Positions 1-60,327 of a stretch of DNA of 64,000 nt are shown here, in pieces. Positions within the stretch are counted from its first letter, which is position 1, and each line of letters starts with the position of its first letter. The notes under the pieces were generated by a model. That model was given only the letters and a program-made list of their open reading frames with translations, was not told where the DNA came from and made no database searches. This DNA is from Chloropicon primus (Eukaryota), in the NCBI GenBank assembly GCA_023205875.1, contig CP060758.1, positions 930,001 to 994,000 of the forward strand, read 5' to 3'. The position numbers and the translations under genes are program-made.

Positions 1-3000
1 GATTGGCCTGGGGAGCCCAGAGCTGCTGCGACAGACGAAAACATGATAGAGGAGTCCAACCTGATGTTGGACGTGAATCTGCTGAGAATATCGAGTGCAC
101 GTTGCTTTGGAGCAAAGACACTTCTGCACTTCTGGATAGACTGCTTCAGCAGTGTTGCATCTGCTAGCACACCTCCTGCGTGAATCATCACATCAATTTG
201 GTGTTGCATCACTTGAACCACTCCTTCGACATCACTTGTCAAGGAAGCATCACACTTCATTAAGGATTGCACCATCAAGATCTGTGACGATCTGGAGCAG
301 ATCTTCTCAGCGTAAGTTGCACTCGCATGACCTGATCTGCCCAGAGCAACAGTGTGGTGGATGGGCAAGCCCGTGTTCCATGCACAAAGCGCAGAACCCA
401 ATGAGCCTGCACCTCCTGTGATCACAGCTGTCTCCTGCATTCCAAAGGAAACATCTCTTCCTGGGCATACAACAACTTTACCTACATGCTTGGCTTGGGA
501 CATTTGACGCAAGGCAGCATGTACGGAACCAAGACTGTGGATCACCTGAGGCAAAGGTCCAATGCTGCCAGAAGCGAGGAAGCGAGCCGTTTGCAACATC
601 ATCTGCTGCATTCTGTGTGGCGGCAAGAAATCCACAGCAAGCAGCTCGTATGTCACATCCTGACGCTCCATCCTCACAGACTGGCGTGACCAAATGTCAC
701 GCTTTCCAATCTCAACCATCCTACCTCCACTGCCCAAAGTGGACAAGGTTGCTCCTACCATACCTGACGACGTCAAGGAGTTCAAAGCAATATCCACACC
801 ACCAGTGTAGGACACCAACTCTGGATACCGGGTATCTCTCGAGTTCACCACATGCTGAAGCCCCAACGACCTCAGCAAAGAGCGCTTGCGGCTACTTCCA
901 GCCGTGGCCAAGGCGTTGGAACCACTGGCTTGGACAACCTGGAGAGCGGCAAGACCGACTCCTCCTGCTGCGGCGTGAATGAGGACATTGTCATTGCGCT
1001 GCATGCAAGACGCGTGGGAGAAGGCAATCTGCACTGTCACAAACACGGTGGGCACTGTGGCTGCGGCACTGAATCCAACATTACTGGGCAAGGGAACGAA
1101 CAAATCAGAAAGTGCATTCACTTCCGTACCAAGACAACCCTCTGCGAGGCCAAACACTGACTGACCAACACAGAAGCCGTCTGAACCCTTGGTCTCCACA
1201 ACCACACCAGAGCAATCGCCTCCTGGCAAACCTGGGTCCCCGGGATACATGTCCAAAATATTGAGAACATCACGGAAATTCAGTCCAATGGCGTGTACCT
1301 GAAGGATCATATCCATGGTGGTTTTGGAGAGGGGCTCTAAGGCTTGCAGGGCCAAGCTACTGAAAGAACCTCGTGGACTTGGAACAAGCTGCATGTGAGC
1401 TTGCTTCAAGTGAGCTCTGCTGGCGATGAGAGTAGGCACCAAGACCATTCCCCCACGGAGAGCTTCTCCTTGAACATCTGATTCTGCACTTCTCATCAGC
1501 AGAGAGTCGACAATCAACGCGTTCGCATTGGAACCAACGTTGATTGTGTCCTCGATAGATACGTCAACACCACCGCAGGTCAAATTCTGGCATTCCTGTG
1601 CTACAGTGCGCATCAGACCCCACAGGTGTCCCTGAGACGTGTTGACGTCGTTGATGGGGCAATCAAGAGCTCCATAAGCACCGAAGGTTTGAAGGTTCAT
1701 AGGCATATGACCCTTGTTGATCAAATCACGCACAACGCTGAGGGCCAACCCCATCGAGCTGATTTGAGAATCAGGTTCTAAAATAAGCATTGAATCGGTA
1801 GCAGAACCCAAAGGACTCGATGACTGAGCAAGACAAGCATTCCACTGCACAAAGTAGGTCGTGGATCTCTTTTCTTCAATGGATGCCTTGGAGACCGAGG
1901 TCCCTGAAGACATGCTCTTGGTCAACAAGTTGTACACAGTGCTTGAAGACAGGCCGTTTGGATCTTGAAGGCTATGCTGGCTCATGCTCTTCTGAGCCGA
2001 ACTAAACACAGTCTTTGCGACAGCATGCAAAACATTGGATTTGGTTCGCTGGTGCACAACAAAAGCGTCAATTCCAGCAGGAACTTGTGTTTGTTGATCC
2101 TCCCCTGATCCGTTATCGACCAAACTTGTAGCTCCAAGCTGGAGGCAACCATCCAGAGCGCTAGGGTGTGTATACATGCCATTCAAAGCACCACTCTCCT
2201 GGCCACCAATGTGAGCATACGCCTCACCCGACAGGTGTCCGTTGTGTCTTATGGCCTTCAGTACTTGGAACTTGGTCATGTAGTTCAAACCAACTTGATG
2301 CATCGCATCGTAAAGAACGACCGATGGAATGGGTACAGCAGATTTTACCCTCAAGTTTTCTTTGCTAAGAGACAATGAAGTCGATGCAATTTCTTCTGAA
2401 GGCTCGTCCACCGATTTGATCCAGCCCAAAGATGCCCTGAAATGAGCAGTACCAAAGCCCGTGCTGTTCCTCTTGGAAAGCGAGGAGATGTCGAACTTTG
2501 CATCGCCGAGCGTATGCACACTAATCTGAACCACAACATCATCCGCCTTGCCCATGGATTGAGGCAGTACAAGAGGGGCAGGAATGGCAGCCTGTTCCAC
2601 AACAATAGATTCAATCGCACCATCTGTCATGAGATGTCCAAGTGCCGAACCCATCTCCAGGTATCCCGCACCAGGGTACAAGGGTTTGTTTTGAATCTGG
2701 TGATCCCACAAGTAAGAATGCAAGGCCCTTGTCAACGTCGTCTCAAGCTTGACAACTCCATCGACATCCACGCGAGCACACTTCGACAACAAGGGGTGCA
2801 CAGGAGGCAAAACCCAGCACCTCTGTGGTCGCCAGCTCAGTACTGCATTCTCCTTGCTGAACACTGAAAACGGGGTACAACCCAAAATGGCATGACTGTT
2901 CGTTCCTTGGAACGCAAACGAGCTTACACCGCCCACAAGGTCGGCATCTGCGACATTTTGAGAGATACCAAAGGACAACTTTGGCAAGTTGTACTTCGAG

Positions 3001-4140: not shown

Positions 4141-7100
4141 TGGACATCACCGAAAGTTTGTGAATCACAGCCCAAAGTCGTATCTGTGACTGTCACCTTC
4201 ACTCCTGACAAGGATCGCATACTGTCACATATGAACGTTTGCATTGAATCCAGCGTAGGATAGTCAAATACCACCGTCCCTGGAAGTTCAATCGCAAAAA
4301 CGCGTTCCAAATCTGTCCGCAACTCTGTGGCACCCAATGAATCCAAGCCAGCAGCCATGAGGGGCTCGTCCGGCTGGACATCATGACCAATAACGCCGCA
4401 GACGACTGACTTAAGATGACTTCGAATCTGGTCTTCATCCATGACAGGTGCTGCTCCTTGTCCAGTCACAAAACTGATATCTGGCACCTGTTGAGCAGCA
4501 CTAACAGCAAATTCAACTGAAGCATGCTCACTCAAGTAATGCGTCTTCTTTGGGATATGGCTCATGAACACAGGCCAATTAAATGGATTGACGACATCTA
4601 TCGGCGTGGGCGTCATGCTTTGCATGCTCTGCATGACACAAGCCAATGCAGACATACCCTCCTCGGCTGTCAAGGAGGACATTCCCGTCCTTTGCAAACG
4701 CAGAGCTGTCTGCTCGTTCTGCGAAGCCATTCCGCCTCCAGACCAGGCACCCCAGCAAATACTAGAAGCAGTAGATCCCATGCTCATTTGACGCACGGCG
4801 AAAACATCTAGGTACGCGTTGGCTGCACCATAGTTGGATTGGCCTGGGGAGCCCAGAGCTGCTGCGACAGACGAAAACATGATAGAGGAGTCCAACCTGA
4901 TGTTGGACGTGAATCTGCTGAGAATATCGAGTGCACGTTGCTTTGGAGCAAAGACACTTCTGCACTTCTGGATAGACTGCTTCAGCAGTGTTGCATCTGC
5001 TAGCACACCTCCTGCGTGAATCATCACATCAATTTGGTGTTGCATCACTTGAACCACTCCTTCGACATCACTTGTCAAGGAAGCATCACACTTCATTAAG
5101 GATTGCACCATCAAGATCTGTGACGATCTGGAGCAGATCTTCTCAGCGTAAGTTGCACTCGCATGACCTGATCTGCCCAGAGCAACAGTGTGGTGGATGG
5201 GCAAGCCCGTGTTCCATGCACAAAGCGCAGAACCCAATGAGCCTGCACCTCCTGTGATCACAGCTGTCTCCTGCATTCCAAAGGAAACATCTCTTCCTGG
5301 GCATACAACAACTTTACCTACATGCTTGGCTTGGGACATTTGACGCAAGGCAGCATGTACGGAACCAAGACTGTGGATCACCTGAGGCAAAGGTCCAATG
5401 CTGCCAGAAGCGAGGAAGCGAGCCGTTTGCAACATCATCTGCTGCATTCTGTGTGGCGGCAAGAAATCCACAGCAAGCAGCTCGTATGTCACATCCTGAC
5501 GCTCCATCCTCACAGACTGGCGTGACCAAATGTCACGCTTTCCAATCTCAACCATCCTACCTCCACTGCCCAAAGTGGACAAGGTTGCTCCTACCATACC
5601 TGACGACGTCAAGGAGTTCAAAGCAATATCCACACCACCAGTGTAGGACACCAACTCTGGATACCGGGTATCTCTCGAGTTCACCACATGCTGAAGCCCC
5701 AACGACCTCAGCAAAGAGCGCTTGCGGCTACTTCCAGCCGTGGCCAAGGCGTTGGAACCACTGGCTTGGACAACCTGGAGAGCGGCAAGACCGACTCCTC
5801 CTGCTGCGGCGTGAATGAGGACATTGTCATTGCGCTGCATGCAAGACGCGTGGGAGAAGGCAATCTGCACTGTCACAAACACGGTGGGCACTGTGGCTGC
5901 GGCACTGAATCCAACATTACTGGGCAAGGAAACGAACAAATCAGAAAGTGCATTCACTTCCGTACCAAGACAACCCTCTGCGAGGCCAAACACTGACTGA
6001 CCAACACAGAAGCCGTCTGAACCCTTGGTCTCCACAACCACACCAGAGCAATCGCCTCCTGGCAAACCTGGGTCCCCGGGATACATGTCCAAAATATTGA
6101 GAACATCACGGAAATTCAGTCCAATGGCGTGTACCTGAAGGATCATATCCATGGTGGTTTTGGAGAGGGGCTCTAAGGCTTGCAGGGCCAAGCTACTGAA
6201 AGAACCTCGTGGACTTGGAACAAGCTGCATGTGAGCTTGCTTCAAGTGAGCTCTGCTGGCGATGAGAGTAGGCACCAAGACCATTCCCCCACGGAGAGCT
6301 TCTCCTTGAACATCTGATTCTGCACTTCTCATCAGCAGAGAGTCGACAATCAACGCGTTCGCATTGGAACCAACGTTGATTGTGTCCTCGATAGATACGT
6401 CAACACCACCGCAGGTCAAATTCTGGCATTCCTGTGCTACAGTGCGCATCAGACCCCACAGGTGTCCCTGAGACGTGTTGACGTCGTTGGTGGGGCAATC
6501 AAGAGCTCCATAAGCACCGAAGGTTTGAAGGTTCATAGGCATATGACCCTTGTTGATCAAATCACGCACAACGCTGAGGGCCAACCCCATCGAGCTGATT
6601 TGAGAATCAGGTTCTAAAATAAGCATTGAATCGGTAGCAGAACCCAAAGGACTCGATGACTGAGCAAGACAAGCATTCCACTGCACAAAGTAGGTCGTGG
6701 ATCTCTTTTCTTCAATGGATGCCTTGGAGACCGAGGTCCCTGAAGACATGCTCTTGGTCAACAAGTTGTACACAGTGCTTGAAGACAGGCCGTTTGGATC
6801 TTGAAGGCTATGCTGGCTCATGCTCTTCTGAGCCGAACTAAACACAGTCTTTGCGACAGCATGCAAAACATTGGATTTGGTTCGCTGGTGCACAACAAAA
6901 GCGTCAATTCCAGCAGGAACTTGTGTTTGTTGATCCTCCCCTGATCCGTTATCGACCAAACTTGTAGCTCCAAGCTGGAGGCAACCATCCAGAGCGCTAG
7001 GGTGTGTATACATGCCATTCAAAGCACCACTCTCCTGGCCACCAATGTGAGCATACGCCTCACCCGACAGGTGTCCGTTGTGTCTTATGGCCTTCAGTAC

Positions 7101-10100
7101 TTGGAACTTGGTCATGTAGTTCAAACCAACTTGATGCATCGCATCGTAAAGAACGACCGATGGAATGGGTACAGCAGATTTTACCCTCAAGTTTTCTTTG
7201 CTAAGAGACAATGAAGTCGATGCAATTTCTTCTGAAGGCTCGTCCACCGATTTGATCCAGCCCAAAGATGCCCTGAAATGAGCAGTACCAAAGCCCGTGC
7301 TGTTCCTCTTGGAAAGCGAGGAGATGTCGAACTTTGCATCGCCGAGCGTATGCACACTAATCTGAACCACAACATCATCCGCCTTGCCCATGGATTGAGG
7401 CAGTACAAGAGGGGCAGGAATGGCAGCCTGTTCCACAACAATAGATTCAATCGCACCATCTGTCATGAGATGTCCAAGTGCCGAACCCATCTCCAGGTAT
7501 CCCGCACCAGGGTACAAGGGTTTGTTTTGAATCTGGTGATCCCACAAGTAAGAATGCAAGGCCCTTGTCAACGTCGTCTCAAGCTTGACAACTCCATCGA
7601 CATCCACGCGAGCACACTTCGACAACAAGGGGTGCACAGGAGGCAAAACCCAGCACCTCTGTGGTCGCCAGCTCAGTACTGCATTCTCCTTGCTGAACAC
7701 TGAAAACGGGGTACAACCCAAAATGGCATGACTGTTCGTTCCTTGGAACGCAAACGAGCTTACACCGCCCACAAGGTCGGCATCTGCGACATTTTGAGAG
7801 ATACCAAAGGACAACTTTGGCAAGTTGTACTTCGAGTTCTCGTTTGATCCAATGATTTGGTGCAAGTGAGGGTTCACGCTACTCAAGTGAATTATGGGCG
7901 TGCTCGCTGCGTTCATCAAAGCGTCCATGGTGTGGATGAGGCCGGCCGCACCTGCGCCTGGTTCAGTGTGACCAATGCTTGATTTACCTGCAGCCAAGTT
8001 CAGAGGGTGGTCTGCTACACGATTTCCCATCAACACGGCATTCAAAGCACCGACTTCAATAGGATCGCCAAGTGGCGTTCCAGTACCGTGCATTTGCAGC
8101 AGACTTACGTCTGCACCGTCTAAAGACTTGTGTTGCAATGCTGCTCTTACGACCATTTGCTGTGCAGGACCATTAGGAGCAGTCAACGCACTGGATCTTC
8201 CGTCTTGATTTACAGCTGTTCCTAGCACGGCAACGGGCAGGCTGTCGCTGGAATCTGCTGCTCCACTGCTGTCATCAGCACTTTCCAAGCAAAGGGCACC
8301 GCAGAATTCTCCCCTCACATAGCCATCTGCTGAAGCATCAAGGGTCTTGCACCTTCCGTCTGCACTGAGCATACCTGCCTTATGGAACATCATTGTTGTA
8401 TCTGGTGTTGACAAGATGTTTACACCTGCAACAATGCTTGTCGTCTTCGAGAAGTTTCTCTGTGTGTTTGCAATGTGTGTTGTCACAAGGGACGAGGAAC
8501 AAGCAGTGTCGATGCTCATGGCTGGTCCTCGGAAGTCAAACATGAAAGATATCCTTCCTGAAGCAACACTCAAAGCTCCTCCTGTTGCACTGTAAGTAGT
8601 CACTCCAGATTGATATTTACTGCACAGTCGGCCGTAATCAGTGTTTGAGATTCCAACAAACACGCCGACGGGGCAGGTGTTATCAAGCGCCTTGCAACCA
8701 AACTTCAACTCAAGAATTATCTGAATCAATGCTCGTTGTTGCACGTCCATCAGCATGGACTCCCCTAGGCCAAGGCCTGTGCAGGAAATGTCAAAACCAG
8801 CGACGTTTTCCATGAAGGACCCATAAGTTGGAGGTCTCACATTACTGTATTCTTTCGATACTGAATCCAAATCCCACCGAGTAAACGGAACTCTTGAGAT
8901 AGTATCAGTCCTAAGCCTTGAGGATGTTGTAATACCAGAGGGCCCCTTTAGCGCAATAGAGGTACATAACGTGTTCTGGACATCACCGAAAGTTTGTGAA
9001 TCACAGCCCAAAGTCGTATCTGTGACTGTCACCTTCACTCCTGACAAGGATCGCATACTGTCACATATGAACGTTTGCATTGAATCCAGCGTAGGATAGT
9101 CAAATACCACCGTCCCTGGAAGTTCAATCGCAAAAACGCGTTCCAAATCTGTCCGCAACTCTGTGGCACCCAATGAATCCAAGCCAGCAGCCATGAGGGG
9201 CTCGTCCGGCTGGACATCATGACCAATAACGCCGCAGACGACTGACTTAAGATGACTTCGAATCTGGTCTTCATCCATGACAGGTGCTGCTCCTTGTCCA
9301 GTCACAAAACTGATATCTGGCACCTGTTGAGCAGCACTAACAGCAAATTCAACTGAAGCATGCTCACTCAAGTAATGCGTCTTCTTTGGGATATGGCTCA
9401 TGAACACAGGCCAATTAAATGGATTGACGACATCTATCGGCGTGGGCGTCATGCTTTGCATGCTCTGCATGACACAAGCCAATGCAGACATACCCTCCTC
9501 GGCTGTCAAGGAGGACATTCCCGTCCTTTGCAAACGCAGAGCTGTCTGCTCGTTCTGCGAAGCCATTCCGCCTCCAGACCAGGCACCCCAGCAAATACTA
9601 GAAGCAGTAGATCCCATGCTCATTTGACGCACGGCGAAAACATCTAGGTACGCGTTGGCTGCACCATAGTTGGATTGGCCTGGGGAGCCCAGAGCTGCTG
9701 CGACAGACGAAAACATGATAGAGGAGTCCAACCTGATGTTGGACGTGAATCTGCTGAGAATATCGAGTGCACGTTGCTTTGGAGCAAAGACACTTCTGCA
9801 CTTCTGGATAGACTGCTTCAGCAGTGTTGCATCTGCTAGCACACCTCCTGCGTGAATCATCACATCAATTTGGTGTTGCATCACTTGAACCACTCCTTCG
9901 ACATCACTTGTCAAGGAAGCATCACACTTCATTAAGGATTGCACCATCAAGATCTGTGACGATCTGGAGCAGATCTTCTCAGCGTAAGTTGCACTCGCAT
10001 GACCTGATCTGCCCAGAGCAACAGTGTGGTGGATGGGCAAGCCCGTGTTCCATGCACAAAGCGCAGAACCCAATGAGCCTGCACCTCCTGTGATCACAGC

Positions 10101-13100
10101 TGTCTCCTGCATTCCAAAGGAAACATCTCTTCCTGGGCATACAACAACTTTACCTACATGCTTGGCTTGGGACATTTGACGCAAGGCAGCATGTACGGAA
10201 CCAAGACTGTGGATCACCTGAGGCAAAGGTCCAATGCTGCCAGAAGCGAGGAAGCGAGCCGTTTGCAACATCATCTGCTGCATTCTGTGTGGCGGCAAGA
10301 AATCCACAGCAAGCAGCTCGTATGTCACATCCTGACGCTCCATCCTCACAGACTGGCGTGACCAAATGTCACGCTTTCCAATCTCAACCATCCTACCTCC
10401 ACTGCCCAAAGTGGACAAGGTTGCTCCTACCATACCTGACGACGTCAAGGAGTTCAAAGCAATATCCACACCACCAGTGTAGGACACCAACTCTGGATAC
10501 CGGGTATCTCTCGAGTTCACCACATGCTGAAGCCCCAACGACCTCAGCAAAGAGCGCTTGCGGCTACTTCCAGCCGTGGCCAAGGCGTTGGAACCACTGG
10601 CTTGGACAACCTGAAGAGCGGCAAGACCGACTCCTCCTGCTGCGGCGTGAATGAGGACATTGTCATTGCGCTGCATGCAAGACGCGTGGGAGAAGGCAAT
10701 CTGCACTGTCACAAACACGGTGGGCACTGTGGCTGCGGCACTGAATCCAACATTACTGGGCAAGGAAACGAACAAATCAGAAAGTGCATTCACTTCCGTA
10801 CCAAGACAACCCTCTGCGAGGCCAAACACTGACTGACCAACACAGAAGCCGTCTGAACCCTTGGTCTCCACAACCACACCAGAGCAATCGCCTCCTGGCA
10901 AACCTGGGTCCCCGGGATACATGTCCAAAATATTGAGAACATCACGGAAATTCAGTCCAATGGCGTGTACCTGAAGGATCATATCCATGGTGGTTTTGGA
11001 GAGGGGCTCTAAGGCTTGCAGGGCCAAGCTACTGAAAGAACCTCGTGGACTTGGAACAAGCTGCATGTGAGCTTGCTTCAAGTGAGCTCTGCTGGCGATG
11101 AGAGTAGGCACCAAGACCATTCCCCCACGGAGAGCTTCTCCTTGAACATCTGATTCTGCACTTCTCATCAGCAGAGAGTCGACAATCAACGCGTTCGCAT
11201 TGGAACCAACGTTGATTGTGTCCTCGATAGATACGTCAACACCACCGCAGGTCAAATTCTGGCATTCCTGTGCTACAGTGCGCATCAGACCCCACAGGTG
11301 TCCCTGAGACGTGTTGACGTCGTTGGTGGGGCAATCAAGAGCTCCATAAGCACCGAAGGTTTGAAGGTTCATAGGCATATGACCCTTGTTGATCAAATCA
11401 CGCACAACGCTGAGGGCCAACCCCATCGAGCTGATTTGAGAATCAGGTTCTAAAATAAGCATTGAATCGGTAGCAGAACCCAAAGGACTCGATGACTGAG
11501 CAAGACAAGCATTCCACTGCACAAAGTAGGTCGTGGATCTCTTTTCTTCAATGGATGCCTTGGAGACCGAGGTCCCTGAAGACATGCTCTTGGTCAACAA
11601 GTTGTACACAGTGCTTGAAGACAGGCCGTTTGGATCTTGAAGGCTATGCTGGCTCATGCTCTTCTGAGCCGAACTAAACACAGTCTTTGCGACAGCATGC
11701 AAAACATTGGATTTGGTTCGCTGGTGCACAACAAAAGCGTCAATTCCAGCAGGAACTTGTGTTTGTTGATCCTCCCCTGATCCGTTATCGACCAAACTTG
11801 TAGCTCCAAGCTGGAGGCAACCATCCAGAGCGCTAGGGTGTGTATACATGCCATTCAAAGCACCACTCTCCTGGCCACCAATGTGAGCATACGCCTCACC
11901 CGACAGGTGTCCGTTGTGTCTTATGGCCTTCAGTACTTGGAACTTGGTCATGTAGTTCAAACCAACTTGATGCATCGCATCGTAAAGAACGACCGATGGA
12001 ATGGGTACAGCAGATTTTACCCTCAAGTTTTCTTTGCTAAGAGACAATGAAGTCGATGCAATTTCTTCTGAAGGCTCGTCCACCGATTTGATCCAGCCCA
12101 AAGATGCCCTGAAATGAGCAGTACCAAAGCCCGTGCTGTTCCTCTTGGAAAGCGAGGAGATGTCGAACTTTGCATCGCCGAGCGTATGCACACTAATCTG
12201 AACCACAACATCATCCGCCTTGCCCATGGATTGAGGCAGTACAAGAGGGGCAGGAATGGCAGCCTGTTCCACAACAATAGATTCAATCGCACCATCTGTC
12301 ATGAGATGTCCAAGTGCCGAACCCATCTCCAGGTATCCCGCACCAGGGTACAAGGGTTTGTTTTGAATCTGGTGATCCCACAAGTAAGAATGCAAGGCCC
12401 TTGTCAACGTCGTCTCAAGCTTGACAACTCCATCGACATCCACGCGAGCACACTTCGACAACAAGGGGTGCACAGGAGGCAAAACCCAGCACCTCTGTGG
12501 TCGCCAGCTCAGTACTGCATTCTCCTTGCTGAACACTGAAAACGGGGTACAACCCAAAATGGCATGACTGTTCGTTCCTTGGAACGCAAACGAGCTTACA
12601 CCGCCCACAAGGTCGGCATCTGCGACATTTTGAGAGATACCAAAGGACAACTTTGGCAAGTTGTACTTCGAGTTCTCGTTTGATCCAATGATTTGGTGCA
12701 AGTGAGGGTTCACGCTACTCAAGTGAATTATGGGCGTGCTCGCTGCGTTCATCAAAGCGTCCATGGTGTGGATGAGGCCGGCCGCACCTGCGCCTGGTTC
12801 AGTGTGACCAATGCTTGATTTACCTGCAGCCAAGTTCAGAGGGTGGTCTGCTACACGATTTCCCATCAACACGGCATTCAAAGCACCGACTTCAATAGGA
12901 TCGCCAAGTGGCGTTCCAGTACCGTGCATTTGCAGCAGACTTACGTCTGCACCGTCTAAAGACTTGTGTTGCAATGCTGCTCTTACGACCATTTGCTGTG
13001 CAGGACCATTAGGAGCAGTCAACGCACTGGATCTTCCGTCTTGATTTACAGCTGTTCCTAGCACGGCAACGGGCAGGCTGTCTCTGGAATCTGCTGCTCC

Positions 13101-28100: not shown

Positions 28101-31100
28101 ACATTCACCCAAACCCAAAAACGCAGCAGCTCGTTCCAGATATCTCGAATTGATATGCTGCGGCAAGAAATCCACAGCAAGCAGCTCGTATGTCACATCC
28201 TGACGCTCCATCCTCACAGACTGGCGTGACCAAATGTCACGCTTTCCAATCTCAACCATCCTACCTCCACTGCCCAAAGTGGACAAGGTTGCTCCTACCA
28301 TACCTGACGACGTCAAGGAGTTCAAAGCAATATCCACACCACCAGTGTAGGACACCAACTCTGGATACCGGGTATCTCTCGAGTTCACCACATGCTGAAG
28401 CCCCAACGACCTCAGCAAAGAGCGCTTGCGGCTACTTCCAGCCGTGGCCAAGGCGTTGGAACCACTGGCTTGGACAACCTGAAGAGCGGCAAGACCGACT
28501 CCTCCTGCTGCGGCGTGAATGAGGACATTGTCATTGCGCTGCATGCAAGACGCGTGGGAGAAGGCAATCTGCACTGTCACAAACACGGTGGGCACTGTGG
28601 CTGCGGCACTGAATCCAACATTACTGGGCAAAACGGACAGTAAATTCTTTGAGGTCACTGCATGAGAAGCTAACGAACCAATTGCAAAGCCGAATACAGA
28701 TGTTCCTGGTGCAAAAGCACTGCAATCACCTGAATTGAACACTGTCCCTGAACAATCTGCGCCAGGCATTCCAGGCTCTCCGGGATACATGTCCAAAATG
28801 TTGAGAACATCACGGAAATTTAATCCCACGGACGCAATTCTTATCTCAACTTCCCCGCAACTTAAGGGTGTGGTTGATGGCGAATACTGCTTCAAAGCTA
28901 AGCTCGAGAAGGATCCTCTTGGCTGGGGAACAATCTGGAAGGCAGAGACCTTCATAGGATTGACTCTGTGAGAGTCTCTTAACCTGGTCATCTGTGAATG
29001 GTATTCTGTCGTTCCGTCCGTAGTCAGTATGCCTTGGCCCCAGTTGGAATAACCTCCAGGGGAGACAAACGTATCAGATTCTGGAATTGTTTGTGACACG
29101 TGGTAAATCTTGGAGCTGTAATTGCATTCCTGTGTGAATGACTTGACTGCACCCCATATAGCATGCTGTAAGCATCTTGAATCAAGACTCCCATTTTCTG
29201 CCACAATTTTGTTTGCATCAAAGACGGACTTCAATTTCAGATGATATCGATCAATCTTCAAAGTACTTTCCAGATCTTGCATCAAGCTGAATGACGTCCA
29301 CAGTCCTGGAACTCTGCTGTTTCTTTGAGGATTATCCAGATCGTGAACAACAGTAAAGTTATTCCTGTCACCGGTCTCAAAGGCGATAGAAGTCATTTCT
29401 TGCTTGCTCTCTACCAGTGTGTTCTGCACACATAACCACGAGACATGGTACATCGAATCAGTCTTCTCCACCTTCATTGTTGCCATTTGAGTTTTGGCTT
29501 TGACGGCATATCCAAGGATGGACTCGATACTCGCAACATTATCACCCGAGGCTGTAGTCAGATTCAAATCGTTTGAAGACCCTGCAACAATTTCGGGTGC
29601 CAATGATGCAGTAGCGTAAGTGCTACAGACATCACTGCATCTTGAACAAACGTAGACTTCTATGGACACTGGGATTTCCGAAGATGGCTCTTCACCCTTG
29701 TCGACCTTGGAGATGACATCTCTTCCTGCTATAACGTGCAATGCAGCGTCTAAGACAGCAGGATCGACCAAAAAGTCATTGCTATTGACGTTTGAGCCAA
29801 TCTTGCCCACTGCTGTTGAGTGGTCTCCAACCCAAAGAGTTTCCAAGAGTTTGAACGCATCTTTGTACTGCAAACCAAGGTTCGACAGCTTGTTGTACAG
29901 ATCAACAACATTGCAAGGCCTGTACACGGCTTGCCGCATGAGTTTCTCGCTTGCCAAGTCATTCTCCAAGGGCTCGATGACACTGTATGAGCCTGCAAAA
30001 TGTTCTTCCCTGTCCGATCTCGAACAAAACTCTCCAGATACGTTGTTTAGACAAAAAGTCAAAGGAGCAGATTCCATGTTCAACACCAGCGCAGACATGA
30101 AAGCAATCTTCGTTGCTACAACGTTTTGTGAAGTTCTTCTATCGGTGAGCGCAAAACATTCAGAAGCGCATTCCAGAAAGGCGGCTCCGGGCAAAATATG
30201 CATCCCTTGGACAATATGATCATGCAGAAAGCCCAACGACGGTGCTCCCAAGTTGATTTCAATCATGAGAGTAGCATCACCACCATGCTTCAATGATGTT
30301 GTGAAGGGTCCAACTGATTCTCCTATGCAATAGAAAGCCATTGTAAAGAGAGAGCTGGGATTGGTTCCTGTGCTGATGTTGTTTGGACCTTCTGCCATGC
30401 TCACAACCACATTTGCATTTGTTCCCTGAAATGCAAAGGAGCTCACAGACCCATGGGAGACGTGTGCAGCCAGTGACCTGTTCAGGACACGCTCTTCCCT
30501 TGGCACAGAGCTTTGCTTGAGTGCAGGCACGACGTACGGATTGACGGATTTGAGATGACCAAACGAAGCTGACCTGTGCATGGCTGCCTCACAAATGAGC
30601 TGAAACAAACCTGAAACACCTGCTGCAGCTTCAGTGTGGCCAATCTTTGACTTCACGGAACTCAGGTTCAAAGGATCATCAGTTTTCGTCTGGCGGTATA
30701 CTGTTGTGAGTGCATTTACTTCAATAGGATCTCCTAGCGGAGTTCCAGTTCCGTGCATCTCAGTAAAGAGTATCTCGCTTGGTAATATTCTCCCTTTTGA
30801 CACAGCCTCAGAGAGAACTTGCTGTTGAGCGACTCCACTAGGAGCAGTGAGAGAGCTTGACCGCCCATCTTGATTCACAACCGCAGATACTATATGGACT
30901 CCAGAAAATACGGATTCTTCGCCCTCGTCCAAATTGCGTCTAGACAGCAGCACGAGACCACAGGCATCACCCCTGACATAACCGTCTGCTGATTCATCGA
31001 GAGTTTTACACCTTCCATCTCGGGCAAGCATACCAGACTGGTGGAACATCAGCGTGACCTCAGGGGCCAGAATTATATTCACACCCCCTGAGATGGCAAA

Positions 31101-34100
31101 TCCATAACTCGAGAGAGCCATACACGATTCTGCGGCATGCATTGTCACAAGAGATGAAGAGCAAGCTGTATCGATTGACACTGAAGGCCCCGAGCACCCA
31201 AACAGATATGATAACCTTCCAGCAGCTGCGCTGTGTGCATTACCTGTGCCCATGTAGGCATCCACTCTTTGCAGCAACACCTTTGTCATTGCAAAATGAT
31301 CCATTTGCGATATTCCTACATAGCAACTACACTGTGACAGCATGTCGTCGCTCAAACCATTGAGTACATTCGTGGCGTGCTGAACAAGAATTCTGTGCTG
31401 GGGGTCCATCATACTCGCTTCTGTGGCGGACATGTTGTAGAGAAGCCTGTCGAAGTTGTACACATCTTTCATGAAGTTTCCAAACCTTGGGATGCTTCCG
31501 TATCTTTCCATCAATACCTCAGAATCCCATACGGCATATGGCACAGCAAAGATGGCATCGGAGGGTTCTACGAGAGCATCTATGTTGTCCACCATATTCT
31601 TATTTGCAGTTGCATATGAGTATGCAAGAGGAAGAGTAACGAAGTTGCCCCCATCTACAACTTGAAGATGCGCTAAACTGGTCACTTCAGCATCAACTGG
31701 CGCTGTCTCCGGAGAAGTTGCTAGAAGATGGTCTGAAAGTGATGAAATCGTGGGATGATCAAATGCAATGGTGGCAGATACATCAATGTCAAGAGAGTCC
31801 TGTAAACTTGTGGCAAGCGCAACAGCAGTTGAAGAGGTCAAGCCGAAATCCCACAGAGAGTCATCACTTGAAATGTTTGAAATGCCTAGACAATCCTCTA
31901 CAGTCTTGGATAGCACCTCCATCAAGCCCTTTCTCGCCGTTGAAGCAGCTAGTTGAGAGGTATGACCAGTCGTCTCCACAGGAGTCATTGCATTGCCAGA
32001 CGCTTCCTCTTTCTCAGTAGACTTTTCGCTAACAAAATTATAGATTTCGTCAACGGAGCTGTAGTCAAAAAGAAGAGTGGCAGGAACCTCAAACGACAAA
32101 GCACTCTCAAGATCAGTACTAACTTTCACTGCAAGCATGGAGGTCATACCAGCATCCCATACAGATTGCGAGGTGTCTTCAATGTTGACCGACTGAGAAA
32201 TGCAGTCAAGAAGAATGGTCTTCAAGATATCAGGACTTGCATGAGACTGCGAAACTGCAGGCATCTCAAGCTTCACGCTCAAGTCAGGCATTGACGCGAT
32301 CGACTCTAAAACAAACAAGCTCGACATGCCGAAATCATTCTCTGCTGAGTTGCCCACGACACAGCACACAAAAATGCCGTCGACATCATACTCTGCAAGA
32401 AGGTTGAGCGCCACGGCGAGATCCCCCTCGCTCTCGCATTCCACGAGAATGACGGCCTCCCCCTCCTCTGCTTCGACGCCACCATGCGAGACAACTTCCC
32501 ACAGGTCCTTGCAGTCCTTCAAGGAGAAAGTTGTGGCACTGCCTTCGCCCTTGGACGCAAGGTAATTCTTGCGCAACTCCGTCTTCAGGATCTTTCCTGA
32601 CCCCGTGGTGGGCATCTCGGACACGATCAAGATGCGGGAGGGAACCTTGTACGAGGACAAAGCTTTCTGGCAGTGCCTCACCAAGTCTCTCTCGCTTGCG
32701 GAGCTACCTGGCTGAATTCTCACCGCCGCGGTCACCATTTCGCCCATAACGCTGTTTGGCACGCCAAAGACTGCTGCTTGCATGACAGAGGGGTGCTCCA
32801 TCAAAGCAGCCTCGACTTCGACACAGTACACGTTCTCTCCCCCGCACAGAATCATGTCCTTGCACCTGTCGATCACAGTGATGTATCCAGAGCCATTCAC
32901 CGTGGCCAGGTCTCCCGTGCGGAACCATCCGTCACGGAAAGCCTCCTTGTTGGCCTCTGGGTTGTTGGCGTACCCATCAAACACGGTGGGTCCCCTGCAC
33001 AGCACCTCTCCAACTTCGCCACTGTCCGGCTTGGCCTCGGTGCCAGCGTCCGTGACCACCTTCACATCCATAAGAGAAAACGGCCTTCCCGAGGTGCAGA
33101 TGAGGTCCAACAGGCTCTGCACGTCGAGGCTGCGCAGCTCCTCCTCGGACAGGATCGACATGGAGATCTTCCCGCAGCATTCGGTCATTCCGTAGGACAG
33201 GAAGAACTCGCACCCAAACGTCCCAATCGCCTTCTTCACGGTCGCCGGAACGAGCGGGGACCCTCCGCAGGAGAGAATTCTCAGCGTGGTGAAGTCCAGC
33301 GCCTGGCACCAAGGGCTGCTCACCATCAGGGTGACCATGGTGGAAGCAACGTTGCTTATGGTCACGCCCTCCCTCTCCATCGTCTGCATCGTCCTCACCG
33401 AGTCAAAGCTTTCCAGCATCACGTGGGTGCCCTGCACGTGCGTCACCGAGTATATTGCGAAGGCGTCCACCAGGTGGAACATGGGCGCGAAGTGCCCCCA
33501 CACGTCACTCTTGTTGATCCTCATGGCATCGATCGCCCCGCCAGAGTGCTTGCAGACTATGCCCATGCTCAGAATGACGCGCTTCGGCTTCCCCGTCGTT
33601 CCGCTCGTGTAGTACACCTGGTACGGACTGGCCAGACCAAGATCAACCTTGTTTCCGAAGAAGATTCCCCTGAGATCTCCACCGCCAAAGGCGTCCTCGT
33701 ACTTTCTGCACGACACCTCGTCGTCGAGCAAGGCGCGAGGAACGCCCCCGGGGCCCGACCTCACGACAAGAAGCAGCTTCACACTGGACTCCTGGCCGGC
33801 CTCCCTCATGGCGTCCACCGCACGGTCAAGAAGATCTTGATGCACAATCACCGTCGACGGCAAGGAGTCTCCAAGGATGTACGCCAGCTCGTGAGCGACG
33901 AGGCGGGTGTTCAGATTCACGACGCTCGCCCCCAACCACGCCGCCGCAAAGTGAACCTCAATGGTTTCGTGGATGTTGGGGAGCAGCACGCCAACGCTCG
34001 ACCCTTGACCCACTCCGTGGCCCTGGAGGAAGGAACCTAGCTCGCTGCACCTGCCGTGGAGCTCCTGGTAGGTGAACTTGGAGCTGCCGTCGACCACCGC

Positions 34101-37100
34101 CACCTTGTCCGGCACCTCCAGCGCCGCCGAGACCAAGGAATTCCATGGATGGTCCACTTGTGTGGCTTGGGGCATGATGTGTATTTTGCTTGGCCTGTGA
34201 CTTTCTTTCCGGGACGCAAGTTTCAAGTCCAAGACAGTGTCCTCCCAGGGCATGTAAGCCAAGGTCTCCAGCACTCGCACCAGCATAACTTTTGTTTTCT
34301 GTGCCGTCTTTCTCGTGAAAGCGTGCGCGTCATATGTCAGCATTCCAACGAGGGACCCGTTAGACGCTTTTCCAAGTGCAAGCCAATAATCAAATGCAGA
34401 CTCGGGCATCGGAAGGGAAAAGTTGTCGTAGTTCTGAGACAAGAAACTGAAGCAGGTCGTAAACAAGGGATTGCTTCCCGCAATCGTTCGTTTGGGCTGC
34501 AACCTCTTCAGCAAGCTCAGCCACGGAACATCGGGATGGTCAAAGGAGTCCAACGTCCTCGTCATCAGAAGTCTCAAGAATTCCACAATGGATTGACTGT
34601 TCGTAATTTGGGCTCTGACAGGGAGGATGCTGGAAAAGCACCCGATGGACGAGCCTATTTGTGACAACTGGGTGCTCTTGGATCTCAAGTCGAAGGGTGT
34701 ACCAAGCGTGATGTCATCAACATCGTTCGCCATCATATGCAACGTGAGAAACCACGCTCCGAAGACTGCATTGAACAATGTCAGATTCTGACGGGAAGCC
34801 TGTTTGAGAAGCCTCTGCGTGAGGTCTACAGAAACACCAATTTGAATGCTTCCAGCCGCCGTGTGCAGGGAGAGCTGCCTCTTGAAATCACACTCCAGGT
34901 TCAAGATCTCGAATTTTCCTCTTCGATCTTCTGTGAGGTAATTGTACCAGTGATCAAGGTTCTGTTTGGCATCATCCGGATCCACCTCGTTCCTACGTAA
35001 TGTTGACTCTATGAACAAGAGATCGCTTTCGCCTCCACCTCCTGACGTTGGAGGATCAGGCCGCTTCTGCAATCTCTCCAGGTACTCGGTTTTGACATCT
35101 TCCGCAATGATCCCCATGGATCTCCAATCTGCAACAATGTGGTGCGTTATGAACAGAACATTGTTTCCGTGAACGTGAATCCTCGTGATCGGACCTCGCA
35201 CGAGGTCGAAGGGGTGACTCATGGCCTCACTGAATCCCTTCTCCTCCTCGTACACGACGAGGTCAACCAATTCGCTGCTCGGCTTCACTCGGAAGTGCGA
35301 ACCGTCTGAAGAAAACACCACTCTGAGGATAGGGTGCTTTCTAAGGACGGACATGTATGCAGAGCGCAGAATGTCCACGTCGATGGAAGTATCCAGGCTG
35401 ATTACGCAATTCATGTTGTAGCAACTTGAGTGCGGTTTGAGCGTGAAGTGTGTCCAAAACACGAGCTGCTCCTCCGTAAGAGGCCATTCAGTGTGCACGA
35501 GAATACTTTGCAGCACCTTCTGTGCCTGCGCGTCCTCTTCCTTTGGCTTCCTTGGGGCAGCTGTCTCAGCCGTCAGAGCAATTCCTGGCTGGACATCGTG
35601 TGATTGGACACTCTTGACTCCTCCACCAATGAACTTGCTTATGTCGTCAATGGAGGGGTAATCAAAGATCAGGGTATTCGGAATCTGCAAACCAAAGTCA
35701 GAAGTCAGCCTGTTCTGCAATTCCATACCGCCCAAGGAATCTATGCCCATTTCGATCAAGGACTTGTCCTCTTCAACGTCGTCGTCCAGAATCTGAGCGA
35801 CAATTTTCGATACTCGCTTCTTAATGCTTTCGAGCAGAGTCGCGGACTCCGCGATGGCGTGGGCAGGTGTTGATGCCGCTGCATTGTCATCGTTGACCCG
35901 GAGGACTTCCCTCTGAAACATAGCACCGACTTTGCTGACCTCCAATGGCGACGCAAGGATCTGGCTCTTCCCCGACAGCCACAACTTCTGCCTCACGAAG
36001 ACCTCGTTCAGAACTCGGAGTCCCTCTTGAGTTGGAAGAGTCCCCAAACCCTGGCGGTGCAACCGCTGCAAGACTTGCTTGTCCCTTGCCGCCATCCCCA
36101 AGTCTCTCCAGCCTCCCCACTGGATGCTCGTGGAAGGGACTCCGGACATCCTCAAGCTGTCGCACAGGAGATCCATGAAAGAATTCGCTGCAGAGTAATT
36201 GGCTTGGCCAGCTGTTGGAACCACTGACGCAATCGATGAGAAGCACACCAGCGACGTAATGGGCTGCAATGGAAGTGATACCAACCTCTGCAACCCTTCC
36301 ACCTTTGGTTGGAAGCAGCTTCGACTGCTTGACACAGTCTGCGACCTGAGCAGACCGTCAAAGAGACCCCCGGCAGCATGGACCACGCTCCTGATATCCG
36401 AGAAGGCGAACGGATGTGCAACATCTTCGGAGAAGGACACGTCGCAGAGCGAAGCCGTGTACGAGCACAAATCAGGCAACCTCCGAGAAGGCAACGTTCT
36501 GCCGACAAGGACCACGGACTTCCCTTGCCTGGATTGGTACCACCTGGCAGAGCAAAGACCAATATCCCCCATCCCGCCCGTAAACAGGCAGCTACCTCTG
36601 ACTTCGTGATCTGCACCAAGGGTGTTGGTTGCTAGGCGGTCGGACAGGATAGAAGAGTAGAGCACGTTCGATCTGCACGAGGATCCCAGCACACTGGTTC
36701 CCCCGAATTTTGCGGTGGAGGTTGAGTACACGTCCTGGTCCAAGGCCTCCAAAGTCGTTTGGGGATACTCCTTGAACATTGTTCGGAGCATGGACCAGTG
36801 GAAGACGCCATCACCTCCCCATCCCTTCTTCGCGTTTGTGACGCCACCCTTCGAAGATGGCAGCACGCTGAAGGTCTCAAGGCGCAGGCTCGTGCTCAGA
36901 TTCGTGCTCGCGATTCGAGTCGCGATGCTCAGAACGGCGAGATAAGTCCACAAAGGGGCGGCGCCCGCCTTGCTGTGGAACGTGTGCGCACTCCCAACGG
37001 TGAGATTGGCACTTCTGGAATCAAATGGAACAGAAGGCTCACTCGCACTAGGACCGAAGGCAAGATGACGGATTGTGTACATCATCTTGCTTTTCCTGGA

Positions 37101-40100
37101 CTTGCTCCTCAGTGCATCTCTGGAGCCAATTTCTTTCAGCAGCAGTCCAGTAGCCAGCAAGACCTGTGCGCCACCTCTTCTGATGTTGTGATCATGGCAC
37201 TCGTTGTCGCCAGTCGAATAAACCCTGTTGTGGCCCGAATAATAAACCCCAGCTTTCTTGCTCCCGAAACTCAAATAATCTGTGGCCACAGGGACCTTCA
37301 CACCCCACTTGCCTTTGCTGGTCATCTTGCAGGCCGCGTTGAAATGGATCGCGGCATCAGATATCGCGGGATGCATGTTGAAATAGTCCTCCGGCTCGCC
37401 CTCGTAGCTGATGGAACACAGTGGACTGCAGCTTGGGTCGGGAGATATCCTGGCCGAGCATGTTTGAGCATTCTCTGGTCGGTCGGTGACCTGCAACTCT
37501 TTCCTCGCGTACGCAGTACAGTGGACGTTGTTGTGGCTCGAGATGGTGACGTAGCCATTTCCGTCCACGCGAGTGGAGAGCAGTGTCTCAAATTCAAAAC
37601 CGGTGTGCTGAGGAAGGAGGCAGGGCAGCATAATTGACAAATCTTGCACTCCCATAGGACTCTTCGTGCCTTGCCTCGTGTTCTGAGACGTGAGCAGAGA
37701 CGAGAACGCCATCTCAAAGAACCCAGAGCCTGGAAACAGGCACCTGTTGAAAACCTTGTGGTCCCACAGAAAGGGCTGCCTCTCCACGGAGAAGCACACT
37801 TCGATCTGGTGTCCAGGCTCACCAGAGCTGGCCCCAAAGGACAGGAAAGGATGAGCGATCGGCAGGCTCCACAAATACGTGCTTTCCAGCAAGTGGAATC
37901 TCGCCTTGCTGCTTTTCCACACCACGCCATCGCTGACGGCGTCAGAAGTGAACGAAGCGTGGGCATTCGTTCCCTGGAAAGCGAACGAACTGACGTGGTG
38001 AGTCTTCCCGTGCCCCTGATAGACGTTGCACGCCTCCCTCGAGGACAGAACCGAATTCTTGTGCTGCTTCAATGTAGCGACCACATGAGCATTCATCTCC
38101 CTCAGGTGACACATTCCTCTAAAGTTGTTCAAGTCTTGACAGAGGGCCAGGACGCCCACGGCCCCGGCCGCGGGCTCGGCGTGCCCAACATTCGATTTCA
38201 CAGAGGACAAGGAGATGCAGGCATCTCCTGCACTCGAGCTGAACGCCGAAAGAGCTGCTCCAACCTCTATTGGATCGCCGAGAGCGGTTCCCGTTCCGTG
38301 CATTTGAAGGACAGCGGCGTCCTCGGGCAAGCTGCCTCCCCTGGCCATCACCTGCCTGATAATGTCCTGCTGAGAGGGGCCGTTCGGGGCCGTGAGGGAG
38401 CTCGATCTCCCGTCCTGATTCACCGACGAAGCCTTCGCAACTATGGTGTGCCCCCCGGACTCGTCGCTGTGCAGGGCAAAGGCGAGAGCGGCTTCGGCTC
38501 TGACGTAGCCATCCGCGGAAGCATCCAGAGTTTTGCACCGCCCTTCCGAGGACAGCATTCCAGCAAGTGAGCATGACTCCGTCCACTCCCTGGCGAGCGT
38601 GAGGTTCGCACCGCAGAAGAGGGAGCTCTCAGAACTCCCTGGTGACATCGCGATGTGCTCCCTGGCCACGTGCATACCCACGAGAGATGAGGAGCACGCC
38701 GTGTCTATTGTGAGCGAGGGCCCCGTCATGCCAAATGTGTAAGAGAGTCGCCCGGAAGTCACACTGAGGTGCCCACTCGTCGCGGAGAACGTGCCCAAAC
38801 CGTTGTGGGCCACGTTCATGCGAGAGTATTCCAGCATTGATATTCCCACGAACACTCCCGAATTCGTCGACAACGGTGCTGGAGACTCGGTCATGACCAC
38901 GGCCGTGGTCTCCAGCAGCATCCTCTGCTGGGGATCCATGAACCTGGCCTCGTTCGATGCAATTCTGAAAGCTTGGCAATCGAAATCTTCGATGGAGCTC
39001 AGGAAGGACCCGAAGTTTGCGCCGACCTTCTTGCTGAGCTGGTCCCTCCAATCCCACCTCGACAGAGGCACGGTGCTGATCGAGTCGAAGTTGCCTTCCG
39101 TGTTGCTGCAGGGCATCTTGCTGTCACAGCACGTGACGAAAACCGTTGTGGTCGCATCACCTTGGATTCCAGAGGCTGGAAGGGCGTCCAACTCGCCCCC
39201 CGCGAGAGGACCCACCTGATCCGCTGCGTCGCATTCGGAGATGTAGCCCAGCAACAGGTTCAACGTGGGGTAATCAAACGTCGCTGTCGCGGACAGCTCG
39301 ACGTCCACCTCCTCCTTGATCTCTTCCATCAGTTGGACGGCAGTAGAAGAATTCAACCCTGCATCCGTGAAGGGCTGATCCGGCTCCAAGGCAAAATCGA
39401 AAAAGGACTGAATAATGTGCTTCACGGAATCCAACTTTGCGTCCGTGCCCTCCGAGTGGTGTCCTGGCGCTTGCTGTGTGCCGCACAGCGCGACCAAGTT
39501 CTCAGAGATGCTGGAAATGTTGCCGTAGTCAAACACCAGGGTGGAAGGCAAGGACACGCTCAGCTTCTCGCCGAGCCTGTTCGACAGCTCAATCGCGGTG
39601 GCCGAGGTCATCCCGTTCTCCATCAGAGGATCCCCCTCCCCCACGGAGGCTCCTGTCAACTCTGCGACAATATCTGAGACCAGCGTCTTCCAGGACTCTG
39701 GCTCTGACTTCGGCTCGACCTCTCCCGCAGGTGCACAGCCCGCAATCACGAGCGACAGCAAGAACCAGTCGCTGAATTCCACGCTGGACACATGGACAAT
39801 CACAACCTGGCCCAACAAGGCGTCCAGCAGTCTCATCGTCTCCGCCTGGACTGCGTCCCCCTTGTACACAATGACTGTGCTTCGGTCTTCCTCGTGCTCT
39901 GCAAGGAGGTTGAGCGCCACGGCGAGATCCCCCTCGCTCTCGCATTCCACGAGAATGACGGCCTCCCCCTCCTCTGCTTCGACGCCACCATGCGAGACAA
40001 CTTCCCACAGGTCCTTGCAGTCCTTCAAGGAGAAAGTTGTGGCACTGCCTTCGCCCTTGGACGCAAGGTAATTCTTGCGCAACTCCGTCTTCAGGATCTT

Positions 40101-49642: not shown

Positions 49643-50044
49643 CGCAGTCCCCGTCACAGCAGAGGGTCCCGAGAGGCTCGCCGCCACGCCACGGTGGTCT
49701 CACGGTGAGACTCTCAACCCCCTCCCTCTCGCCCCGATATCGCTCTTCGCTTCCTCACTCGAAGGCAAGACCGCTCGATCACGACAAGAGCGCGTGCGCG
49801 ATCGCTCGATCGCTCGATCCGATCGTATCGTATCGTATCGTTCCTCGACGACGCTCACTTCCTCGCCCCCCCGCCCGATCGCGATCGATCGATCAAACAC
49901 GACCCCGGTAACGCTCAGCCGCGGCCCTCGTGATCGGCGATCGCGATGATTTGAGTTTTTGAGTTTTTTTTGTCTGCAAAGGGACGTAGGTGGTGGTCGT
50001 GGTTGGTTGGGTGCGCGCGCGCCCGGCGAGGACGAGGACGCACG

Positions 50045-51988: not shown

Positions 51989-52036
51989 ACAACAGCTCTT
52001 TAATATATATATATACACACCCACACCTCTTAATAC

Positions 52037-55813: not shown

Positions 55814-55839
55814 AGGGGACTAAGGTTTTAGGGGGAAAA

Positions 55840-55846
55840 TACATAC

Positions 55847-55882: not shown

Positions 55883-55883
<1 letters not shown>

Positions 55884-60293: not shown

Positions 60294-60327
<34 letters not shown>

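What the first reader, a model, noticed from the sequence alone, without database searches (positions are those of the whole stretch)
1..41663. Hidden >41.6-kb intronless ORF: giant AT-less PKS/NRPS megasynthase in a compact algal-type genome
Seen: one minus-strand frame carries 2 A, 1 C, 8 KS, 8 DH/DH-like, 6 ER, 8 KR and 11 ACP domains and stays in phase from ATG 41663 to the window edge. No AT (GHSxG) or methyltransferase segment was recognised between the domains. Known: AT-less giant type I PKSs occur in algae (Chlamydomonas PKS1, Prymnesium PKZILLAs), and most have no assigned product. Inference: a single polypeptide above ~1.5 MDa making an unknown lipid-like hybrid metabolite. ORF callers miss it here because the stop is outside the window.
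Basis: partly seen in the sequence, partly recalled or inferred. Interest (0 to 1): 0.85.

Follow-up and report, generated by a model that had tools for sequence, protein, structure and literature searches.

The report
Giant two-starter algal polyketide assembly line
A tiny green alga has one unbroken reading frame of at least 13,887 amino acids, split into pieces in a public annotation, that encodes a polyketide assembly line with two identical starter-loading enzymes and likely joins two chains into one still unknown lipid.

Summary
The ORF is real: 41663 to the left edge, 13,887 codons, no stop. The domain count is right and there is no cis-AT. It is a Chloropicon primus trans-AT PKS. It is not hidden: a public 3,314-aa model matches its start but skips one ACP by a predicted intron and stops early, and published SNPs imply at least 46.3 kb. 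Giant AT-less, self-duplicating algal PKSs are known. What stands out: both 'A' domains are acyl-CoA-ligase-type loaders, not amino-acid NRPS domains, identical in protein; the second sits behind a C domain as a GC3 island, likely overwritten by gene conversion. A distant marine relative has the same layout, again with 99% identical ligases. Best reading: the same OH- or NH2-bearing acid is loaded twice, C joins a short enoyl chain to the second copy, and seven or more reducing modules add a long, nearly saturated tail. Starter and product are unknown. New variant of a known kind; interest 0.5.

The parts
3..41663 (-). Giant trans-AT PKS ORF, 13,887 aa in the window, open at the left edge
42075..42219 (-). 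145-bp GT-AG intron with a TACTGAC branch point, likely in the 5' UTR of the PKS transcript; two further donor-like sites at 41838 and 41757 and a 21-codon upstream ORF at 42001 are untested
   Evidence: joint 42074>42220 with ends CT..AC in one contig of run X5; sequence
40059..41651 (-). Ligase 1 (acyl-CoA-ligase-type adenylation domain, aa 5-535; motifs PMFHLVD, SYGMTECCGK)
39228..39695 (-). Loading ACP1 and ACP2 (GMTS, GLNS motifs)
35628..39131 (-). Module 1: KS-DH-KR-ACP, no ER (predicted enoyl product)
34194..35501 (-). Condensation domain, HHIVADW
   Evidence: Pfam PF00668 E 1.9e-37; PDB C domains E 3.5e-21; motif
32391..34156 (-). Ligase 2 tract: 1,766 bp, 1 synonymous mismatch to 39897-41662; GC3 0.78 between 0.62 and 0.44
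   Evidence: read depth 306 versus 127-139 in unique DNA
31716..32231 (-). Second loading pair ACP4 and ACP5 (GMTS, GLTS); ACP5 and part of ACP4 lie in the intron predicted by the public model (31602-32126)
26922..31631 (-). Module 2: KS-DH-ER-KR-ACP
22119..26816 (-). Module 3: KS-DH-ER-KR-ACP
18474..22010 (-). Module 4: KS-DH(no His)-KR-ACP (predicted to leave one hydroxyl)
13857..18365 (-). Module 5: KS-DH-ER-KR-ACP
9057..13766 (-). Module 6: KS-DH-ER-KR-ACP
4221..8933 (-). Module 7: KS-DH-ER-KR-ACP; one unit of the 4,836-bp tandem repeat
3..4097 (-). Module 8: KS-DH-ER-KR, cut by the window edge; 2 codon differences from module 7 in 1,611

Best explanation
This is one Chloropicon primus gene for an AT-less type I polyketide synthase with two identical acyl-CoA-ligase-type loading domains on either side of a short module and a condensation domain, and it likely joins two chains primed with the same starter acid into one long-tailed lipid. 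Inferred steps: (1) ligase 1 adenylates a carboxylic acid X that also carries a free OH or NH2 and loads it on ACP1/2; (2) module 1 adds one malonyl unit (delivered by a free-standing FabD-type AT) and reduces and dehydrates it to X-CH=CH-CO-ACP3; (3) ligase 2 loads a second X on ACP4/5; (4) C transfers the enoyl chain onto the OH or NH2 of that X as an ester or amide; (5) modules 2-8 add at least 14 carbons, fully reduced except one hydroxyl left by module 4; (6) further domains beyond the window finish and release it, likely as a cell-wall or surface lipid by analogy with Chlamydomonas PKS1. Gene conversion likely keeps the two ligases, and patches of the modules, identical. X is unknown; glycolate and hydroxy- or amino-aryl acids are the lead candidates.
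For: Shown: open frame and intact catalytic motifs; no AT, with controls; ligases identical in 587 of 587 residues; best solved relatives are feruloyl-CoA and fatty-acyl-CoA ligases (E 2e-68, 1.8e-61), NRPS A domains rank last of the 60 shown (fold search agrees). The ligase sits in a 45-row clade (SH-aLRT 96) of protist and Corallococcus PKS starters, apart from NRPS A domains, with H228, D231 and K330 each in 27 of the 29 eukaryote-type rows counted. The C-ligase junction is conserved: P0247, P0254/P0370/P0373, P0257, P0284/P0375/P0376/P0387 and loci L021, L022; their visible C motifs keep HHxxxD. L022 repeats the whole first unit at 34-49% identity, and its post-C ligase is 99% identical in DNA to its first ligase (117 bp in L022; 1,637 bp using L021). 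ACP4/5 carry the same non-GxDS motifs as ACP1/2, marking a second loading unit. In Corallococcus the same ligase is fused to an ACP and a PapA-type acyltransferase domain beside PKS genes, which fits a starter that accepts an acyl chain. Precedent: DTX side chains are glycolate-primed and esterified through the glycolate OH to glycolate-primed okadaic acid (PMC2866473 passages). Two FabD genes and one PPTase are listed elsewhere in the C. primus genome. One gene: an X5 contig runs unspliced over 31108-31396, across the donor at about 31243 where the public model leaves the frame.
Against: No substrate, product or enzyme assay exists for this ligase family (PMC10366177 passage), so steps 1-6 are inferred. 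C has Trp where NRPS C domains usually have Gly after HHxxxD (canonical motif recalled). KS2 groups with post-C KS domains only weakly (SH-aLRT 81), and P0247's post-C KS groups with KS1 instead (100). L022 has a stop inside its C domain. Published RNA depth is 3.05 for the first gene model and 36.04 for the second, which could mean two transcripts rather than 3' bias. X5 is only guessed to be RNA and covers 20 of 30 bins. The end of the gene is outside the window.
Confidence: 0.55

Rival explanations
1. Two fused but loosely coupled lines: C does not act on the second starter but puts the short chain on the hydroxyl left by module 4, or releases it to a free acceptor, while ligase 2 primes an independent PKS1-like long-chain line.
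For: Ligase 2-ACP-ACP-KS-DH-ER-KR matches the stand-alone start of core-chlorophyte PKSs (P0002, P0019, P0026); module 4 is predicted to leave a free OH; identical ligases need no nucleophile on X in this model.
Against: C sits directly between donor ACP3 and a reloaded ACP, the normal donor-acceptor geometry; the junction is kept in relatives with different downstream modules; KS2 falls outside the starter-KS clade that holds KS1.
Confidence: 0.22
2. A standard hybrid: C-A-PCP inserts an alpha-amino acid, as the first reader's PKS/NRPS label implies.
For: Pfam Condensation plus AMP-binding plus carrier in NRPS order; C is closest to bacterial NRPS C domains.
Against: No FDxS/Asp235 motif; PxFH CoA-ligase motif; 23-27% identity to most NRPS A domains against 40-64% to protist PKS loading ligases; identical to the loading domain.
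Confidence: 0.08
3. The locus makes two or more proteins by splicing, as in the public gene models.
For: P0246 is a 3,314-aa model with two introns; RNA depth differs twelvefold between the two models; one SNP beyond the window is labelled intronic.
Against: The predicted introns hold no stop and remove a motif-intact ACP and the KS2 catalytic Cys; X5 reads through the second donor and shows no GT-AG joint inside 23001-41663; split models are a known artefact for algal PKSs (PMC4661987; PKZILLA preprint).
Confidence: 0.08
4. The near-identical modules or the second ligase are assembly artefacts.
For: 66% of the ORF lies in repeated exact 30-mers; 8,390 bp match at 99.95% at offset 4,836.
Against: Read depth of the repeats is about 2.3x (ligase, 2 copies in window), 4.7x (KS-DH, 4), 6.1x (5) and 9.5x (ER core, 6) of unique DNA (X1 may be the source sample); 16 of 16 published SNPs match the window at one offset down to position 3959; allele frequencies 0.25 and 0.24 at two sites 4,836 bp apart fit one allele in four; 0 of 12 chromosome-5 large indels lie in the gene.
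Confidence: 0.07

Closest known systems
Chlorophyte giant trans-AT type I PKSs (Shelest et al. 2015, PMC4661987), including Chlamydomonas PKS1
   Same: MDa size, multimodular, no AT, no MT, N-terminal AMP-dependent ligase, near-identical duplicated modules (89-98% in OluPKS3), product unknown.
   Different: An internal C domain followed by a second, identical ligase and tandem ACPs. The paper's table notes only a central C without A (OluPKS3) and an N-terminal C-A (MicPKS2); its supplementary domain table was not read. PKS1 itself was not among my sequences.
Chloropicon primus QDZ21473.1 (P0246; locus A3770_05p39910) and next model A3770_05p39900
   Same: Same locus: aa 1-3179 differ at 2 residues; published SNPs map at one offset.
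   Different: The public model drops aa 3180-3354 and ends after aa 3473; the window is one open frame. Whether another annotation holds the full-length protein is unknown: the longest of the 120 hits listed was 7,981 aa, so very long proteins may not be held.
Prymnesium PKZILLA-1/-2 (bioRxiv 10.1101/2024.01.29.577497)
   Same: Giant algal trans-AT PKS first annotated as fragments.
   Different: 45,212 aa, 34 introns over three genes, KS0 bimodules, known polyether product; here all 8 KS are intact and the chain is highly reduced.
Dinoflagellate DTX-4/-5 chemistry (PMC2866473) and Karenia tpp-A-KR-PP-KS-PP-C transcript (PMC5725682)
   Same: Two polyketide chains with the same starter joined by an ester; a TPP-ligase-KR start like relatives in this ligase clade.
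   Different: No gene is linked to DTX in what I read; the link to this locus is an analogy, and the Karenia sequence was not compared.
Burkholderia BurA (PMC7496086)
   Same: CoA-ligase-like adenylation domain lacking Asp235 that primes a PKS with a non-amino acid (DMSP).
   Different: Has a cis-AT; no Burkholderia locus was among the 19 loci found with the ligase patterns; sequence not compared.

Membership tests
Algal multimodular trans-AT type I PKS | Several KS-ACP modules on one polypeptide | tested here: met
   8 modules in one open frame
Algal multimodular trans-AT type I PKS | No integrated AT | tested here: met
   Pfam none; own profile below 0 bits, 5 of 5 AT-bearing controls 200-331 bits; 15-31 aa KS-DH gaps
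Algal multimodular trans-AT type I PKS | Free-standing AT and PPTase in the genome | tested here: inconclusive
   Two FabD genes and one PPTase in the paper's gene table; none in the window; which AT serves this PKS is untested
Algal multimodular trans-AT type I PKS | N-terminal AMP-dependent ligase loading unit | tested here: met
Algal multimodular trans-AT type I PKS | Green-algal nuclear context | tested here: met
   Flanking PI4K-ubiquitin, COG6, glycerol kinase, kinesin; named 98% match from C. primus
Canonical NRPS C-A-PCP module | C domain with HHxxxD | tested here: met
   HHIVAD at aa 2174; following residue W, not G
Canonical NRPS C-A-PCP module | A domain with the alpha-amino-binding Asp (FDxS) | tested here: not met
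   PMFHLVD instead; CoA-ligase best hits; separate clade
Orthologue of Chlamydomonas PKS1 | Module-by-module KS orthology with core-chlorophyte PKS1-type proteins | tested here: inconclusive
   KS1 is in the starter-KS clade with core chlorophytes and others (96, 93); KS2-8 do not join their KS2/KS3 clades; PKS1 itself was not in the data
Orthologue of Chlamydomonas PKS1 | Role in resistant wall formation | not testable with these tools
   Role of PKS1 seen only in citing passages
BurA-type DMSP-loading domain | Pocket acid equivalent to BurA D606 and DMSP activation | not tested
   BurA sequence not retrieved; D231 is conserved but equivalence is unknown

The most novel reading that the evidence does not exclude
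The C-ligase junction is a conserved, undescribed way for picoalgae to build a two-chain polyketide ester or amide on one protein: the same starter is loaded twice by ligases that gene conversion keeps identical in separate lineages. Because this ligase shares its pocket motif with the unassigned starter domains of chlorophyte, haptophyte, pelagophyte and dinoflagellate PKSs, one assay on this 59-kDa domain would name the starter for the whole family, possibly glycolate as in dinoflagellate polyketides.
Probability: 0.3. Interest if true: 0.75.

Novelty: new variant of a known kind. Interest (0 to 1): 0.5.

Why it matters
Most green-algal giant PKSs have no known starter or product. This gene has no coding introns in the window, lies in a small cultured genome, and has a readable module order, so it predicts a specific lipid. 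Its doubled ligase constrains the starter (it should accept an acyl group) and gives a small, testable domain. It also corrects a split gene model and is a clear case of module homogenisation inside one eukaryotic gene.

Tried and rejected
No whole genome is held for the window, so the 3' end could not be read. The profile search of protein representatives never ran, so the spread of the C-ligase junction rests, each of which scores only a capped candidate set. Read depth over window 1-23000 was not obtained, so copy numbers there rest on repeats shared with 23001-29000 and on published tables. No RNA holder is listed on record; run X4 could not be read; small-share marine metagenome runs were not used. 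DMSP/BurA idea: not supported or excluded. 4-guanidinobutyrate idea from the fused TPP domain: its NCBIfam lead (1e-67) ties with acetolactate synthase (2.2e-67) and PDB prefers BbmA, with no paper held on it; dropped. No biosynthetic partner genes among 16 flanking frames scanned. Bacterial origin or contamination rejected: eukaryotic flanks, contiguous frame, named algal match. Earlier scan notes: none found.

Full report
Observation. The minus-strand frame from ATG 41663 to the left edge is open for 13,887 codons (1.48 MDa), while the other five frames carry 368-671 stops over the same bases. Pfam on eight overlapping pieces and self-templates give: ligase-ACP-ACP | KS-DH-KR-ACP | C | ligase-ACP-ACP | KS-DH-ER-KR-ACP twice | KS-DH(like)-KR-ACP | KS-DH-ER-KR-ACP three times | KS-DH-ER-KR cut by the edge. 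All 8 KS keep Cys-His-His, all 11 ACP keep Ser, 7 of 8 DH keep the His motif, and 7 KR show their Tyr. No AT: no GHSxG, a control-tested profile scores nothing, and KS and DH lie 15-31 aa apart.

Organism and prior annotation. The flanks are eukaryotic housekeeping genes; 4 of 8 flank proteins looked up are already in NCBI. A search with aa 1690-3320 returned a 98% match named 'polyketide synthase [Chloropicon primus]', 3,314 aa (P0246, QDZ21473.1). It equals aa 1-3179 of the ORF but for 2 residues, skips aa 3180-3354 and leaves the frame after aa 3473. The genome paper (PMC6731263; passages) reports low-GC PKS regions on chromosomes 3, 5 and 8 and lists 12 type I PKS models (Supplementary Data 3, read whole), among them neighbours 05p39910 and 05p39900; I equate P0246 with 05p39910 by its serial number 3991 and by the SNP match. 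All 16 of the 19 SNPs of these two models that fall in the window match it as reference or alternative base at one offset; 36 of 30,001 shifted offsets also fit the 10-SNP block, so chance is about 0.1%. The other 3 SNPs lie up to 4,669 bases beyond the edge, so the locus is at least 46.3 kb (15,444 codons if still open); one of them is labelled intronic. The locus is known, but split in that annotation.

One gene, real repeats. 66% of the ORF lies in repeated exact 30-mers, against 1% of the flank. Modules 7 and 8 differ in 2 of 1,611 codons, modules 3 and 6 in 7 of 1,026, and a 157-codon ER core is identical in modules 2 and 3 although their KS are 40% identical: sharp-edged patches, the pattern expected of gene conversion or unequal crossing-over (inference). 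Depth in DNA run X1 (which may be the window's source sample) is 127-139 in unique DNA, 306 in the ligase, 632 and 818 in module repeats and 1,271 in the ER core, at least as many copies as the window shows; the excess may be copies beyond the edge, other PKS loci or bias. Allele frequencies of 0.25 and 0.24 at two sites 4,836 bp apart fit two copies in a diploid, and 0 of 12 chromosome-5 large indels fall in the gene. Run X5, guessed to be RNA, has one contig with a spliced GT-AG joint at 42075-42219 upstream of the ATG, short pieces of depth 2.7-5.6 in the 5' part, one of which crosses the public model's second donor unspliced, and depth 61 over the collapsed repeat. This fits one long 3'-biased transcript but does not prove it. 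No ATG other than a 21-codon upstream ORF lies in 41664-42400, so no transit peptide is evident and the protein is likely cytosolic.

The two loaders. They are identical in 587 of 587 residues. GC3 falls from 0.78 in ligase 1 to 0.62 in the ACP3-C region, returns to 0.78 in ligase 2 and drops to 0.44 after it; seven flanking genes are 0.76-0.93. Ligase 2 was therefore likely overwritten by ligase 1. They are CoA-ligase type: best solved relatives are feruloyl-CoA and fatty-acyl-CoA synthetases, the motif is PMFHLVD, not FDxS, and they fall in a 45-row clade of 56 rows tested (quick tree; the careful search did not finish) with chlorophyte, haptophyte, pelagophyte and dinoflagellate PKS starters and a Corallococcus TPP-ligase-ACP-acyltransferase protein. 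PMC10366177 states that none of these algal N-terminal domains has been characterised (passage). The C-ligase junction is not unique: it is in P0247, P0254/P0370/P0373, P0257 and the P0284 cluster, and marine locus L022 carries the whole first unit at 34-49% identity, with a post-C ligase 99% identical to its own first ligase (117 bp directly; 1,637 bp via L021). L022 has one stop in C. P0247 runs from C through the ligase into sequence like that after ligase 1 (49% against 32%), which is either a chimeric assembly through identical ligases or a real repeat of the first unit.

Mechanism. Shown: architecture, intact motifs, ligase identity and type. Inferred from standard PKS/NRPS chemistry: the same acid X primes both lines; module 1 gives X-CH=CH-CO-; C joins it to an OH or NH2 of the second X; modules 2-8 add at least 14 carbons, saturated but for one OH from module 4. 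KS1 sits in the starter-KS clade while KS2 sits outside it, weakly with post-C KS domains, as expected if KS2 accepts an acylated starter. A precedent for two same-starter chains joined by an ester is DTX (PMC2866473 passages). A wall or surface role is borrowed from Chlamydomonas PKS1 (citing passages; the original paper was not seen). The aryl-CoA-ligase hits favour an aromatic X, the dinoflagellate precedent favours glycolate; neither is tested.

Novelty. Giant AT-less, MT-less PKSs with module duplications and split gene models are described for chlorophytes (PMC4661987, parts 1-4 of 7 read; supplements not read). It mentions C domains in OluPKS3 and MicPKS2 but, in the parts read, not a C followed by a copy of the loading ligase. 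My searches found no account of this locus as one gene or of this junction; the library lacks most subscription papers. Other papers were seen as passages only (PMC12633428; PMC7496086; PMC8283056; PMC5725682). Verdict: real, ordinary in size and kind for a green alga, but a new variant in layout, with a testable constraint on an open question. Interest 0.5.

Noticed in passing
window 39790-40020 (aa 549-624): Between ligase 1 and ACP1 lies a small folded alpha/beta segment (pLDDT about 56-77) of unknown origin; relatives with ligase-KR-ACP starts have a longer spacer and a KR here.
   Followed up: partly
L001:5121-11261 and L002 (Corallococcus sicarius, C. terminator): Bacterial TPP enzyme-ligase-ACP-PapA-like acyltransferase fusion, 43-44% identical to the algal ligase, next to KS-KS-DH, PPTase and DH genes; a possible tractable model for the starter.
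   Followed up: partly
P0271, P0293, P0332, L025: TPP-ligase-KR-ACP starts in protist PKSs of the same ligase clade, some with left-handed beta-helix domains.
   Followed up: partly
P0284 cluster (82 members): A C-ligase-ACP-KS protein whose KS domains pair with those of Bathycoccus P0255 includes members labelled as bacteria, likely mis-binned algal contigs.
   Followed up: no
window 43354-47730 (+): Two adjacent ORFs with Ig-like Big_12 and CARDB domains and a Pro-rich repeat, perhaps one spliced surface-protein gene.
   Followed up: no
window 49955-62381: Compact housekeeping block: ubiquitin-domain PI4 kinase, glycerol kinase, COG6, Zn alcohol dehydrogenase, kinesin with DUF4472, inositol monophosphatase family.
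   Followed up: no
beyond the left edge: The published gene next to the PKS 3' end is an aldo/keto reductase (A3770_05p39890); relation to the pathway unknown.
   Followed up: no
other C. primus loci (P0248, P0285/P0366): Other C. primus PKSs start with the same ligase family (46-47% identical); one is annotated as 804 aa in one record and 2,982 aa in another, and chromosome 8 has seven close PKS models that may also be one gene.
   Followed up: partly
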